DNA of 44,098 nt from a virus. Lineage: Duplodnaviria; Heunggongvirae; Uroviricota; Caudoviricetes. The notes under the pieces are model-generated. The model saw only the letters and a program-made list of their open reading frames with translations. It made no database searches and was not told where the DNA came from. Below, in pieces: positions 1 through 35,839 of this stretch (positions are counted from its first letter, which is position 1; every line of letters begins with the position of its first letter). The position numbers were made by a program, and so were the translations under genes. The DNA is taken from the IMG/VR virus record IMGVR_UViG_2585427657_000002. One strand, given 5' to 3'.

Positions 1-428
1 CTATGCTGTTTTGATATCTACGATAATCCAGTCTTTACCACGATCATCATTGTATCGGTCGGTCATTTTTCTGGATTTATGACCTAACAACTTTTGCGTA
101 TCCAGACCCTGTTCCCGATATAACCGTTCTGACAGAGATCGCTGCTCATGAAATGTGGGCGCAGTTCCTGGCTCCCATTTTATGCCACATTTTTCCCTGG
201 CCTTTTTAAAAGCCGTTGTAAGAGTATTTGCAGACACCTGGTCTCCTCTGTTTGCTTGAGAGGTAGTGTGACGGTAATGGACCAGATATTTACTAACAAC
301 AGCATCCCTGCACTGAGATATAACTTCACGAAGGGTAATATTCAGAGCATCGCATTTCAGGTTAAGCGGAATAGCAAGTTTTGAACCGGTTTTTTCCTGA
401 GTAATGTGCAACATGTCGTCCCAGATAT
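1..428 (-). pseudogene. int: lambda-type tyrosine integrase, C-terminal ~140 codons only
   Basis: ORF 1..414 (-) carries the catalytic C-terminus of lambda-family Int (...PTFHEQRSLSERLYREQ...LLGHKS...DRYNDDRGKDW); the frame runs upstream straight into the IS911 terminus at 429 and no N-terminal part is present elsewhere. Confidence 0.8.
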
Positions 429-458
429 TGAAGTGGTCAACAAAAACTGGCCACCGAG

Positions 459-1606
<1,148 letters not shown>

Positions 1607-1664
1607 TATGGCACCTGTGTTGTTCTGAGGTGAGCATATCACCTCTGTTCAGGTGGCCAAATTC

Positions 1665-2018
1665 TGGCCACACTCACGTGGGTGGACTGGTATAACAATC
1701 GACGATTGCTGGAAAGGCAGGGCCATACTCCTCCGGCAGAAGCAGAAAAAGCTTATTATGCTTCCATCGGAAACGATGATCTGGCAGCCTGAGTTCACAG
1801 ATAAAACACTCTCCAGGAAACCCGGGGCGGTTCACAGTAAACCACTTCTGGCCACACTCACGTGGGTGGACTGGTATAACAATCGACGATTGCTGGAAAG
1901 GCAGGGCCATACTCCTCCGGCAGAAGCAGAAAAAGCTTATTATGCTTCCATCGGAAACGATGATCTGGCAGCCTGAGTTCACAGATAAAACACTCTCCAG
2001 GAAACCCGGGGCGGTTCA
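1665..2018 (+). repeat. Two tandem copies of a 170-bp IS3-type right-end fragment, separated by 14 bp
   Basis: 1665..1834 and 1849..2018 are identical; each encodes a transposase C-terminus (...LTWVDWYNNRRLLERQGHTPPAEAEKAYYASIGNDDLAA) and ends in ...CCCGGGGCGGTTCA, an IS3-type terminus. Confidence 0.7.
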
Positions 2019-3099: not shown

Positions 3100-3320
3100 T
3101 TAAATAGTACGATATGTACTTTACAAGATCAATACAATTTGTTGTAAGTTGGCGTGGTTTTTTATAACGCTTTGTATTTAATAGTGTTGTTTTTTAGCGT
3201 GGATGTATTGCCTCGGCGATGTAAGGAGAGATCAGAATTGCGTGGTTTAGTGGGTTGCATCTATTTATTTTTCAATAAATATAATTGGTTATGTGTTTTT
3301 AGGTGGGCGAACGTGAGGCA
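3100..3320 (-). promoter_or_regulatory. Putative pL / oL operator region, with nutL expected between it and N
   Basis: AT-rich intergenic block between the cI-operon terminator and N; contains TGTACTTTACAAG and TTACAA...TTGTAA motifs resembling motifs in the cI-cro intergenic region. Exact operators not resolved. Confidence 0.3.
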
Positions 3321-3324
3321 AAGA

Positions 3325-3348
3325 AAACCCGGCGCTGAGGCCGGGTTG
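3325..3348 (-). terminator. Intrinsic terminator ending the cI operon
   Basis: Minus-strand hairpin CCCGGCCTCAGCGCCGGG followed by TTTTCTTT, immediately after the stop of the 250-aa gene. Confidence 0.6.
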
Positions 3349-3350
3349 TA

Positions 3351-4103
3351 TTATGCTGCAAGTCTCTTAACCCAAGTCTCTCTTTTGGAGAATGGTAGAA
3401 CTTGGCTTGATTCATGGAAGAGTAAGGAGAGTTGTTGCATTTGATCACCAATTGCTTCGCTGTCTATAACAACAAATCTGTTGTTATACTCCTCACTTGA
3501 AGCTTTAAGATCAATTAGTTTCCCAAGCAATGAGTAAGCACTATTCCAGCTTCCTCCGTGTTTCACGCTTGATGTAAAAACGTATTTAGGTATGTCGGTT
3601 TTTATTGTTACAGGGACGGTAATTTGATGTCCACTCAAGCCATATACGTTTTCACGAAGAGAAAGTGCGTCTCTAAGCTCTGTGTGATATAGATAATCAA
3701 TAACCATACTTTCAAACTTTTCAGCTTGAACTGGCTGATACCAGTCTAACGACAAAGTTGATGCGAGTATACCAGCTCTAATTATGTTCGATGTAATCGC
3801 ACCGACATCCTTTTCTGTTGCCCAAGCAATGATTTCTCCTCGAGCATTGAGTTCTGCGCCTTCTTTAAGCAGTAATTGTCGTATCTCATCAAGTCGTTTT
3901 TTGGTAAGCGAGATCCCTCTTGCCTCCATATTCATTAAGGCATCGCATCTGTCACTAACTAAATACCTACCATTGACTTCACGGATAAAGGCACCGACAT
4001 GCTCTCCATCATCACAGTAAGTGAATGGACTGATAATTCTCAAGGTCTTGCCTATTGGATGGCATTCGAAACCTAGTTGTGAGATCACTGTTGAGCACAT
4101 CAT
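3351..4103 (-). CDS. Hypothetical protein (250 aa), distal gene of cI-linked two-gene operon
   Basis: ATG ATG start overlaps the stop of the upstream 185-aa gene by 4 nt; no transmembrane segment or motif I can assign; followed by terminator. Confidence 0.7.
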   Translation of the reverse strand: MMCSTVISQLGFECHPIGKTLRIISPFTYCDDGEHVGAFIREVNGRYLVSDRCDALMNMEARGISLTKKRLDEIRQLLLKEGAELNARGEIIAWATEKDVGAITSNIIRAGILASTLSLDWYQPVQAEKFESMVIDYLYHTELRDALSLRENVYGLSGHQITVPVTIKTDIPKYVFTSSVKHGGSWNSAYSLLGKLIDLKASSEEYNNRFVVIDSEAIGDQMQQLSLLFHESSQVLPFSKRETWVKRLAA

Positions 4104-4657
4104 ATTCCAAACCCCATTTGCCCCGACTCATCTTCAAGCGGTAAAGGTATTCTCCCAGAGTAAGTTATGTTCAGATGTTTACAGAAGTAATTCCAATACC
4201 CTACCAGGTCATCTGGGTTTATGTCATCTTCGATTGGAAACGCTATTCTATCACTATAGTATCCAGCTTCTTCATAGTATACATGGTAGTGAGCACCGTA
4301 AATGATATCTTGGTACTTCGGATGATCGACCTTGTAACTATTCGTGTGTTTGTCAAAGTGATAGGTATCTACCGCGAAAACCCTCTTGTTATGATAGAAA
4401 GCAATAATATTTATTTTAGGGTAAGAAATCGGGTCATCAGGTTCTGAATCCTGATCTGGTTTCCATTTCAGTTCAAACTTTAGCCCTTGTATAGGTATAC
4501 AATCCTCATCCAAGGGGATGATATGGGCTTGTAGCCACATATCAGAGCGACTTGGTTTCTGTTTCCATTTAACGCCAGAAAAGTTAACTATTTTTTTACA
4601 ATAAAGTACTTTATCAACTTCTACTTGGCTTGGCTGATAATCATCTATTTTTGCCAA
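4100..4657 (-). CDS. Hypothetical acidic Tyr/Asp-rich protein (185 aa), proximal gene of cI-linked operon
   Basis: ORF begins at a TTG codon 40 nt downstream of the cI stop (in-frame stop two codons upstream, so no longer extension is possible); only alternative start is an ATG at codon 40. Confidence 0.6.
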   Translation of the reverse strand: MAKIDDYQPSQVEVDKVLYCKKIVNFSGVKWKQKPSRSDMWLQAHIIPLDEDCIPIQGLKFELKWKPDQDSEPDDPISYPKINIIAFYHNKRVFAVDTYHFDKHTNSYKVDHPKYQDIIYGAHYHVYYEEAGYYSDRIAFPIEDDINPDDLVGYWNYFCKHLNITYSGRIPLPLEDESGQMGFGI

Positions 4658-4696
4658 TGTTTACCGCCCTGTAAATTGTAGATAAAAGTGGTTTCA

Positions 4697-5362
<666 letters not shown>

Positions 5363-5404
5363 GTCCTTATTATTACGCTCTGTACTGGAACCATCCATGC
5401 ACAA

Positions 5405-5474
5405 TGTGTATTTTTACTTGTATTCGCAAAGTACATATTGTATTTTTTTTATTCGTGTTTACTATGGAGGGCAT
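5405..5474. promoter_or_regulatory. Putative oR operators with divergent pRM / pR
   Basis: 70-bp AT-rich divergent intergenic region between cI and cro with repeated TGTA/TACA half-site-like motifs (e.g. CTTGTATTCGCAAAGTACA). Confidence 0.4.
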
Positions 5475-35513: not shown

Positions 35514-35839
35514 AAACCTTCCGCTGGAAAGTGAAACCCGGGATGGATGTGACATCGGCTCCTTCCGTCAGGGAGGTGCGCTTTGGTGATGGCTATTCCC
35601 AGCGTGCGCCTGCCGGGCTGAACGCTGACCTGAAAACGTACAGCGTGACGCTGTCTGTCTCCCGTGAGGAGGCCACGGCGCTGGAGTCGTTTCTGGCTGA
35701 GCACGGGGGCTGGAAGGCCTTTCTGTGGACGCCGCCTTATGGTTACAGGCAGATAAAGGTGACCTGCGCAAAATGGTCGTCGCGGGTCAGTATGCTGCGT
35801 GTTGAGTTCAGCGCAGAGTTTGAACAGGTGGTGAACTGA
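35510..35839 (+). CDS. M: Tail tip protein M
   Basis: 109 aa, MKTFRWKVKPGMDVTSAPSVREVRFGDGYSQRAPAGLNADLKTYSV... Confidence 0.9.
   Translation: MKTFRWKVKPGMDVTSAPSVREVRFGDGYSQRAPAGLNADLKTYSVTLSVSREEATALESFLAEHGGWKAFLWTPPYGYRQIKVTCAKWSSRVSMLRVEFSAEFEQVVN

What the first reader, a model, noticed from the sequence alone, without database searches (positions are those of the whole stretch)
3325..4657. Unassigned two-gene operon directly downstream of cI, in the rexAB position
Two translationally coupled genes (185 aa, then 250 aa, 4-nt ATGA overlap) lie on the same strand as cI, start 40 nt after the cI stop, and are closed by an intrinsic terminator just before the pL/N region. This is the slot where lambda carries rexA-rexB, so the pair would be expressed from the repressor transcript in a lysogen. 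Neither protein looks like RexA/RexB (no membrane helices, different sizes) or any family I can name. The first is acidic and Tyr/Asp-rich; the second is soluble with no motif I recognise. Cargo at this position in lambdoid prophages is frequently exclusion or abortive-infection function, so this is the strongest candidate for an undescribed system in the window.
Basis: partly seen in the sequence, partly recalled or inferred. Interest (0 to 1): 0.85.

Follow-up and report, generated by a model that had tools for sequence, protein, structure and literature searches.

The report
Untested two-gene cassette replacing lambda rexAB
In the E. coli Nissle 1917 lambda-like prophage, two overlapping genes of unknown function sit exactly where phage lambda carries its rexA-rexB exclusion genes; the pair always travels behind prophage repressor genes and two published computational screens flag it or its family as an anti-phage candidate, but I found no experimental test and the mechanism is unknown.

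Summary
Gene A (4100-4657, minus strand, 185 aa, TTG start) and gene B (3351-4103, 250 aa) overlap by ATGA. A starts 39 nt after the cI stop, and a terminator (3347-3326) follows B.

Alignment with lambda shows homology on both sides: up to the cI stop, and again from the terminator hairpin after rexB, which is identical. The pair therefore replaces rexAB between conserved anchors.

All 93 related loci analysed keep A immediately upstream of B. In every locus checked the pair lies in the operon of a lysogeny repressor, of at least 17 S24-peptidase classes plus short CI types. Hosts include Enterobacterales, Aeromonas and a Pseudomonas phage.

B has a DUF1828 domain with a type III secretion chaperone / YbjN-like fold, plus a restriction-endonuclease-like (DUF1829) domain that lacks a recognisable catalytic triad. 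A has no fold relative in the libraries searched, an invariant Arg/Asp/Asn/His set and a conserved C-terminal tail.

The pair is not RexAB. It is a remote relative of the PADLOC candidate PDC-M24. Both exact proteins are listed as 'Predicted novel defense gene' in the DefensePredictor tables, but were not screened there.

My verdict is a real, widespread, uncharacterised candidate exclusion system. It is already flagged computationally and its mechanism is open. One relevant paper (Brenes & Laub 2025) could not be read.

The parts
4100..4657 (-). Gene A: 185 aa, TTG start, weak DUF6978 / PDC-M24A-like match. It is a beta-rich protein with no fold relative in the libraries searched. Invariant residues are K22, W31, R92, D97, N106, H123, H125, F158 and P173; H104 and G121 are nearly invariant. 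The C-terminal tail is conserved (SGQ, then two variable residues, a hydrophobic, one variable and a hydrophobic residue) and is modelled at low confidence.
3351..4103 (-). Gene B: 250 aa. The N-terminal DUF1828 domain (about residues 1-120) has a type III secretion chaperone / YbjN / DUF2170-like fold. The C-terminal domain (about 125-250) has a restriction-endonuclease-like fold and corresponds to DUF1829. Invariant residues are S25, P26, D32, D51, G89, E90, I91, F130, V134, L138, S157, G158, W186, D198 and R209. H159 is kept in 8 of 9 deep relatives, and position 214 is always Asp or Glu.
4100..4103 (-). ATGA stop/start overlap, implying translational coupling of A and B. A 4-nt overlap is found in 66 related loci; the second allele has a 13-nt overlap.
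3326..3347 (-). Intrinsic terminator closing the cI-A-B unit. The hairpin is identical to the one that follows rexB in lambda.
3226..3347 (-). Conserved right-hand anchor of the cassette slot. It is 90% identical to lambda 35708-35826, and the homology begins at the terminator just after the stop of the last cargo gene.
4658..4696 (-). 39-nt spacer between cI and A, with a GGGCGG Shine-Dalgarno-like element 6 nt before the TTG start.
   Evidence: read directly from the sequence
4697..5398 (-). cI repressor (HTH plus S24 peptidase domain) and left-hand anchor of the slot. Its 3' half is 93% identical to lambda cI up to the stop codon. In this assembly it appears frameshifted by seven single-C insertions, six of them seen in the stretch aligned; the gene is intact (231 aa) in other Nissle and CFT073 assemblies.
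3106..3120 (.). Operator-like palindrome AGTACGATATGTACT on the pL side. Related copies lie at 5430-5444 and 5372-5386 on the pR/pRM side. Together they bracket the immunity region that contains the pair.

Best explanation
The pair is most likely a two-protein exclusion or abortive-infection module expressed in the lysogen, carried as swappable cargo in the same slot as lambda rexAB.

Shown:
- The pair sits between the cI stop and the lambda-type terminator.
- A and B are always together and overlapping.
- The pair follows lysogeny repressors of many unrelated specificities.

Inferred:
- The pair is co-transcribed with cI from the maintenance promoter, and so is present before a superinfecting phage arrives.
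- A and B form a complex.
- B is the sensing and controlling subunit. Its chaperone-like DUF1828 domain binds a protein ligand: a phage product, the conserved C-terminal tail of A, or both in competition. Its restriction-endonuclease-fold DUF1829 domain binds or cuts DNA.
- A supplies an enzymatic or effector activity through its invariant R92/D97/H104/N106/H123/H125 cluster.
- Infection by a heteroimmune phage shifts the complex into an active state that blocks phage replication or kills the cell.

Which subunit is the effector, and what the target is, remain open.
For: Position:
- Homology with lambda stops at the cI stop and resumes at the identical terminator hairpin after rexB.
- This slot is a published hotspot that houses the abortive-infection systems RexAB and BstA (PMC8585504).

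Linkage:
- All 93 loci analysed have A immediately upstream of B.
- The upstream gene is an S24 cI-type repressor of at least 17 classes sharing under 60% identity, or a short CI-type repressor, sometimes with one small gene in between.
- The same arrangement is found in Aeromonas, in a Pseudomonas phage where the A-like ORF is unannotated, and in the most distant A relatives recovered.

Allelic diversity:
- A second E. coli allele (A about 40%, B about 51% identical) occupies the same slot behind true lambda-type cI/Cro and behind the window's own cI type.
- A diverges faster than B throughout.

Independent defence predictions:
- B matches PADLOC PDC-M24B over its full length (E 4.7e-10). A and several of its relatives match PDC-M24A weakly. 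[quoted passage not shown]
- WP_000968518.1 and WP_001062368.1 score log-odds 5.64 and 4.90, above the strict cut-off of 4, and are labelled 'Predicted novel defense gene' (PMC13092281 Table S5).

Domains:
- DUF1829 also occurs in the validated system DS-6/HipAD.

Other signs of selection and tuning:
- The tail of A is conserved at the protein level while its codons vary synonymously.
- A starts with GTG or TTG in 91 of 93 loci.
- The cassette is AT-rich.
Against: - I found no experiment on this pair.
- DefensePredictor validated only 45% of the transcription units it tested, and this pair was not among them (Table S6).
- The match of A to PDC-M24A is weak (E about 5e-4) and covers only about a third of the model.
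- No canonical D...(D/E)xK triad is conserved in B, and K173 and K200 vary, so nuclease activity is doubtful.
- A has no informative structural relative, so its role is a guess.
- Constant linkage to repressors could equally point to a role in lysogeny control.
- Co-transcription with cI was not demonstrated here.
Confidence: 0.55

Rival explanations
1. The pair is a toxin-antitoxin-like addiction or stress module. A, an enzyme with the His/Asp cluster, is the toxin. B neutralises it, with the chaperone-like domain holding A's tail and the DUF1829 domain binding DNA. The main benefit would be prophage maintenance; any phage defence would be secondary.
For: The pair is two-gene and translationally coupled. 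A has a non-ATG start in 91 of 93 loci. In the validated system DS-6/HipAD the second protein carries DUF1829, is proposed to act as an antitoxin, and is predicted to bind the toxin strongly and DNA more weakly. B's canonical nuclease residues are absent.
Against: No known toxin or antitoxin family is hit in Pfam, NCBIfam or PADLOC. Many toxin-antitoxin modules are themselves defence systems, so this rival overlaps the best explanation rather than excluding it. A prophage integrated in the chromosome has little need for an addiction module.
Confidence: 0.2
2. The pair is an accessory regulator of the lysis-lysogeny switch or of prophage induction. It would act on the prophage's own DNA or repressor circuit rather than on foreign phages.
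For: The pair lies in the repressor operon in every locus examined, even at 21-30% identity. B has a DNA-enzyme-like fold without clear catalytic residues. From my own knowledge, not checked here: lambda RexA has been reported to bind DNA and to influence the lysogenic-to-lytic transition.
Against: The same pair follows at least 17 unrelated repressor classes and different Cro types, so it cannot depend on a particular operator or repressor. Remote relatives define a candidate found embedded in BREX, DISARM and RM loci. The pair is kept intact at 99% identity or more in 241 E. coli genomes, including the defective, non-inducible Nissle prophage.
Confidence: 0.12
3. The pair is a host-fitness or virulence cargo gene unrelated to phages, for example one that benefits extraintestinal pathogenic E. 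coli.
For: The genomes listed as carrying allele 1 include Nissle 1917, CFT073, clone D i14 and the E. coli type strain. For comparison, bstA in the same slot was first linked to virulence phenotypes.
Against: Both proteins are cytoplasmic with no secretion signal or membrane segment. The domains are a nuclease-like fold and a chaperone-like fold. The pair occurs in environmental and insect-associated genera and in a Pseudomonas sewage phage.
Confidence: 0.05

Closest known systems
Lambda RexA-RexB (abortive infection / exclusion)
   Same: Both occupy the identical genomic slot between the cI stop and the same terminator hairpin. Both are two genes on the cI strand. By inference, both are expressed in the lysogen.
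   Different: There is no sequence relationship: the PADLOC RexA and RexB models hit the lambda proteins but not A or B. RexB is described as an ion channel, whereas A and B are both soluble. Sizes and folds also differ.
PADLOC candidate PDC-M24 (two-gene phage defence candidate, Payne et al. 2024 preprint)
   Same: B aligns with PDC-M24B over its whole length (E 4.7e-10). A and its relatives repeatedly give weak hits to PDC-M24A and DUF6978. Both are two-gene cassettes in A-B order.
   Different: A's match is weak and partial (model positions 79-134 of 148). [quoted passage not shown] I found no paper that names PDC-M24; the preprint presents the PDC set as candidates for future functional studies.
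DS-6 / HipAD (DefensePredictor; also Brenes & Laub 2025)
   Same: Both are two-gene systems whose second protein ends in a DUF1829 (PD-(D/E)xK clan) domain preceded by another domain.
   Different: The first gene of DS-6 is a HipA-like kinase, unlike A. The N-terminal domain of its second protein is DUF3037, not DUF1828.
BstA (Salmonella prophage BTP1)
   Same: Both are encoded directly downstream of the prophage repressor with strikingly conserved synteny, and the slot is described as a mosaic hotspot.
   Different: BstA is a single protein with a DNA-based self-immunity element. A and B gave no PADLOC hit other than PDC-M24; I did not check whether that library holds a BstA model. No equivalent self-immunity element was identified here.
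Toxin-antitoxin-chaperone (TAC) systems
   Same: This is an analogy only. In both, a chaperone-type domain may recognise a conserved flexible C-terminal extension of a partner protein.
   Different: There is no homology. B's domain has the type III secretion chaperone / YbjN fold rather than the SecB-like chaperone of TAC systems, and the interaction in A-B is hypothetical.

Membership tests
RexAB | A RexA-homologous protein | tested here: not met
   The PADLOC RexA model hits lambda RexA at 9e-110 but neither A nor B at E up to 1. Pfam and PHROGs give no Rex family either.
RexAB | A RexB-homologous membrane protein | tested here: not met
   The RexB model hits lambda RexB at 8.6e-61 but not A or B. 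The highest 19-residue hydropathy is 1.19 or less.
RexAB | Location downstream of cI, on the cI strand, closed by the terminator that precedes pL | tested here: met
   Flank homology with lambda on both sides and an identical terminator hairpin.
PDC-M24 (PADLOC candidate) | A PDC-M24B-type protein | tested here: met
   E 4.7e-10; residues 2-249 align to model positions 4-254 of 256.
PDC-M24 (PADLOC candidate) | A PDC-M24A-type protein adjacent to it | tested here: inconclusive
   E 4.8e-4, covering only model positions 79-134 of 148. Six of ten family members tested give similar weak hits. Adjacency is met.
PDC-M24 (PADLOC candidate) | Embedding in BREX, DISARM or type I RM loci (the basis on which the candidate was defined) | tested here: not met
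   All loci examined are prophage repressor operons.
Pfam DUF1828 + DUF1829 proteins | A DUF1828 domain above the gathering score | tested here: met
   33.5 bits against a cut-off of 22; residues 26-110.
Pfam DUF1828 + DUF1829 proteins | A DUF1829 domain (PD-(D/E)xK clan) | tested here: inconclusive
PD-(D/E)xK nucleases | A restriction-endonuclease-like alpha/beta core | tested here: met
PD-(D/E)xK nucleases | A conserved catalytic Asp ... (Asp/Glu)-x-Lys set | tested here: inconclusive
   The conserved polar residues in the C-terminal domain are S157, G158, H159, D198, R209 and D/E214. K173 and K200 vary, and no canonical triad could be placed from sequence.
Pfam DUF6978 | A score above the gathering cut-off | tested here: not met
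   22 bits against a cut-off of 29.6, and only the C-terminal third aligns. Relatives score 19.5-22.9 bits.
HipAD / DS-6 | A HipA-like kinase toxin | tested here: not met
   Pfam gives A no kinase domain. A is a beta-rich protein with no fold relative.

The most novel reading that the evidence does not exclude
The pair may be a mechanistically new immune module. In this reading, a type III secretion chaperone-like sensor domain fused to a degenerate restriction-endonuclease fold (B) controls an enzyme of unmatched fold (A: R92/D97/H104/N106/H123/H125) through A's conserved C-terminal tail. A protein of the invading phage would fire the system by competing for the chaperone-like groove. The cI-to-terminator slot would then be a defined exchange site where rexAB, two deeply diverged A-B alleles and at least two further unknown cassettes act as interchangeable immune alleles of lambdoid prophages.
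Probability: 0.2. Interest if true: 0.8.

Novelty: new variant of a known kind. Interest (0 to 1): 0.6.

Why it matters
**Prevalence.** Taken together, the two alleles of this pair occur in 302 of 5,426 complete E. coli genomes. That is about three times as many as carry lambda rexAB itself (99).

**Strains of interest.** Carriers include the probiotic Nissle 1917, the uropathogen CFT073, the E. coli type strain, O104:H4 strains and an Stx1a-converting phage.

**Link to a reported phenotype.** Bury et al. traced part of Nissle's resistance to lambdoid and Stx phages to this prophage, and explicitly left its other genes untested (PMC5987069).

**What a positive result would give.** A demonstrated function would:
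- add a new two-protein system to the repressor-linked defences;
- give functions to three domains of unknown function (DUF1828, DUF1829 in this context, and DUF6978);
- turn the cI-to-terminator slot into a precisely bounded place to mine further cargo.

**How testable it is.** The test is one cloning experiment plus a phage panel.

Tried and rejected
- **RexAB membership** is rejected: the models work on the lambda proteins but do not hit A or B.
- **Named defence families.** In PADLOC v2 only PDC-M24 matched. NCBIfam gave nothing.
- **PDB by sequence.** Close-family profiles gave nothing below E 0.2.
- **Designed Kelch protein.** The deep A profile gave an apparent E of 1e-11 to the designed protein SAKe6AC-LB. 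No single stretch passes on its own, so I attribute the score to summing weak matches over the target's repeated design and reject it.
- **Catalytic Lys in B.** I rejected the D198-x-K200 motif because K200 varies (K, R, Y, S, T).
- **RNA or ribosome-binding-site constraint as the reason for A's tail conservation** is rejected, because the codons vary synonymously.
- **Repeats.** A search for a BstA-style self-immunity element or other repeats in the cassette found only short matches likely to be chance.
- **Literature.** Searches for DUF1828, DUF6978 and PDC-M24 found no functional study. Brenes & Laub 2025 is the source of phages PhiR57_1 and PhiR63_2, which carry the pair, but it is not held in the library, so I cannot exclude that it tested the pair.

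Full report
**Source of the window.** The window is 100% identical to E. coli Nissle 1917 assembly CP007799. It holds the lambda-like prophage integrated next to icd, called 'prophage 3' by Bury et al. 2018 (PMC5987069). Compared with the inducible relative PhiR57_1, the prophage is defective. An IS3-family element truncates the integrase gene, and the region from int to ral is missing.

Gene A (4100-4657, minus strand, 185 aa) starts with TTG and reads MAK. That N-terminus is conserved in every homologue and agrees with the RefSeq call. Gene B (3351-4103, 250 aa) starts inside the stop codon of A, giving the ATGA overlap. A begins 39 nt after the cI stop. A G+C-rich hairpin followed by a T-run lies at 3347-3326, 3 nt after the B stop. 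A is acidic and rich in Asp and Tyr, and neither protein has a membrane-type segment. The cassette has 39.5% G+C against 50.1% for the window.

**The 'rexAB position' is exact.**
- A blastn comparison with lambda shows that window 4696-5104 matches the 3' half of lambda cI at 93%, up to its stop codon.
- Window 3226-3347 matches lambda 35708-35826 at 90%. This is the segment that begins just after the rexB stop.
- The terminator hairpin AACCCGGCCTCAGCGCCGGGTTTTCTTTGCC is identical in the window, in lambda and in a third kind of prophage.
- The 1.35-kb A-B cassette therefore replaces the 1.4-kb rexA-rexB cassette between two conserved anchors.
- Operator-like palindromes at 3106-3120 and at 5372-5386 and 5430-5444 bracket the immunity region.
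- The same cI allele is found with other cargo in the slot. PhiR11_1 and 2G7b carry genes of 283 and 163 aa, and Sakai-type Stx phages carry genes of 44 and 173 aa. None of these hits PADLOC or Pfam.
- Owen et al. 2021 already described the cI-to-N region as a mosaic hotspot that holds rexAB and bstA (PMC8585504).

**The pair is a conserved unit tied to repressor operons.**
- Homologues of B and A occur across Enterobacterales and in Aeromonas.
- In 80 viral contigs plus further genomic and phage loci (93 loci in all), A is always immediately upstream of B. The overlap is 4 nt, or 13 nt in the second allele.
- The next gene upstream is an HTH/S24-peptidase repressor belonging to at least 17 classes that share under 60% identity, or a short CI-type repressor. 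In a few loci a small extra gene lies in between.
- The arrangement persists in Aeromonas caviae prophages with two different repressor and Cro types.
- It also persists in Pseudomonas phage phPA-G, where the A-like ORF is unannotated.
- The most distant A relatives found in 1.84 billion representative proteins show it too. That family is small: 20 representatives at E of 0.001 or better.
- A second E. coli allele (A about 40%, B about 51% identical) sits in the same slot behind true lambda-type cI/Cro and behind the window's cI type.
- A diverges faster than B at every distance.
- In complete E. coli genomes, allele 1 is in 241 of 5,426, allele 2 in 61 (including O104:H4 strains), and lambda rexAB in 99.
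- Among sequenced phages the pair is rare, at 8 of 50,697 records. These include ev017, ev207, PhiR57_1, PhiR63_2 and one Stx1a-converting phage.

**What the proteins are.**

*Protein B:*
- It is DUF1828 by Pfam (33.5 bits, residues 26-110) and belongs to PHROG 1960, of unknown function.
- The AlphaFold model (pLDDT 84) has two domains.
- Independently, HHblits in the DefensePredictor supplement assigns residues 155-241 of this exact protein to DUF1829, of the PD-(D/E)xK clan, at 98.8% probability.
- Across deep relatives the invariant residues are S25, P26, D32, D51, G89, E90 and I91 in the first domain. In the linker and second domain they are F130, V134, L138, S157, G158, W186, D198 and R209. 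H159 and an acidic residue at 214 are nearly always kept. K173 and K200 vary.
- I could not place a canonical D...(D/E)xK triad, so nuclease activity is uncertain.

*Protein A:*
- It belongs to PHROG 2017, of unknown function.
- It gives sub-threshold hits to DUF6978 and PDC-M24A, as do several of its relatives.
- Deep conservation picks out K22, W31, R92, D97, H104, N106, G121, H123, H125, F158 and P173. This pattern looks like an active or metal-binding site.
- The last 11 residues are modelled at low confidence, yet they keep an S-G-Q motif followed by hydrophobic residues while their codons vary synonymously. The tail is therefore under selection at the protein level.
- A uses GTG or TTG as its start codon in 91 of 93 loci.

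**Relation to known systems.**
- The pair is not RexAB.
- B matches PADLOC PDC-M24B over its full length (E 4.7e-10). A matches PDC-M24A weakly and only in part.
- In DefensePredictor (Science 2026, PMC13092281), Table S5 lists WP_000968518.1 (B, log-odds 5.64) and WP_001062368.1 (A, 4.90). They are adjacent on a contig of an assembly from the paper's 69-strain E. coli collection, and both are labelled 'Predicted novel defense gene'. The strict cut-off is 4.
- Neither accession, nor any DUF1828 protein, appears in Table S6 (units screened), Table S7 (plaque assays) or Table S8 (domains of validated systems). DUF1828 is also absent from the paper's list of newly implicated domains. The pair was therefore predicted but not tested there.
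- DUF1829 does occur in the validated system DS-6/HipAD, in the putative antitoxin and DNA-binding subunit.
- Literature searches for DUF1828, DUF6978 and PDC-M24 found no functional work.
- Brenes & Laub 2025, the source of PhiR57_1 and PhiR63_2, could not be read. This is the main gap in the novelty assessment.

**Interpretation.** The best-supported reading (confidence about 0.55) is a lysogen-expressed two-protein exclusion or abortive-infection module that is positionally allelic to rexAB.

The case rests on four points:
- the exact slot;
- the persistent pairing and repressor linkage across many immunity types;
- deep allelic diversity between conserved flanks;
- two independent computational defence predictions.

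The mechanistic sketch is inference. In it, B acts as a chaperone-like sensor with a DNA-binding or DNA-cutting domain, A acts as a His/Asp enzyme docked through its tail, and a phage product provides the trigger.

Three rivals remain:
- a toxin-antitoxin-like maintenance module (0.2), which overlaps the main reading;
- a regulator of the lysis-lysogeny switch (0.12), weakened because the pair is indifferent to repressor type;
- a host-fitness cargo gene (0.05).

**Verdict.** This is a real and widespread candidate system that is still uncharacterised as far as I could establish. Others have already flagged it computationally, so it is not a blind discovery. Its mechanism, and the fold of A, are unknown.

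Noticed in passing
window 5090-5260 (within cI, 4697-5398, minus strand): cI appears split into a 67-aa HTH ORF and a 136-aa S24 ORF. The cause is extra single C bases in runs of C relative to Nissle assembly CP022686: six in the stretch aligned, and a 7-base length difference overall. cI is intact (231 aa) in other Nissle and CFT073 assemblies, so this looks like a homopolymer sequencing artefact of CP007799. It probably also explains the two separate 'repressor' genes EcN_1293 and EcN_1294 in Bury et al. 2018.
   Followed up: yes
window 1662-1834 and 1846-2018: A perfect 173-nt direct repeat with 184-nt spacing lies at the junction between the IS3-family element and sieB. It may be a real tandem duplication or another assembly artefact.
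   Followed up: partly
window 1-2000: The integrase gene is truncated by an IS3-family element (ISEc52-like). The int-xis-exo-bet-gam-kil-cIII-ea10-ral block of the related inducible phage PhiR57_1 is missing, so the prophage is defective, yet it keeps sieB, N, the A-B pair and cI.
   Followed up: partly
L101 448-1828 (PhiR11_1) and L102 744-1622 (Stx1 phage HUN/2013): The same cI allele and the same flanks carry other unknown cargo in the slot: genes of 283 and 163 aa in PhiR11_1 and 2G7b, and of 44 and 173 aa in Sakai-type Stx phages. The three larger proteins (283, 163 and 173 aa) were scanned and have no PADLOC or Pfam match; the 44-aa ORF was not scanned. These are further candidates from the same hotspot.
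   Followed up: partly
L094 3486-4004 (Pseudomonas phage VB_PaD_phPA-G, PP083311): An unannotated ORF with a 4-nt overlap onto the B-like gene encodes an A-like protein. It keeps the MAK start, the R-x4-D, H-x-N and H-x-H motifs, and the GQMGF tail. The ORF lies downstream of the CI-like repressor, with one extra 216-aa gene between them.
   Followed up: yes
window 4655-4657, and A starts in 93 related loci: Gene A starts with GTG (61 loci) or TTG (30 loci) and not once with ATG among the 93 loci. This suggests that low translation of A is selected for.
   Followed up: partly
window 3106-3120, 5372-5386, 5430-5444: Operator-like palindromes of the form AGTAC-N5-GTACT lie on the pL and pR/pRM sides. 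There are 3 matches in the window against 0.5 expected by chance. They are likely binding sites of this cI type.
   Followed up: partly
window 4697-5104: The C-terminal (S24) domain of this cI is 93% identical in DNA to lambda cI, while the N-terminal DNA-binding domain differs. The repressor is therefore a mosaic, with the recombination joint inside the gene.
   Followed up: partly
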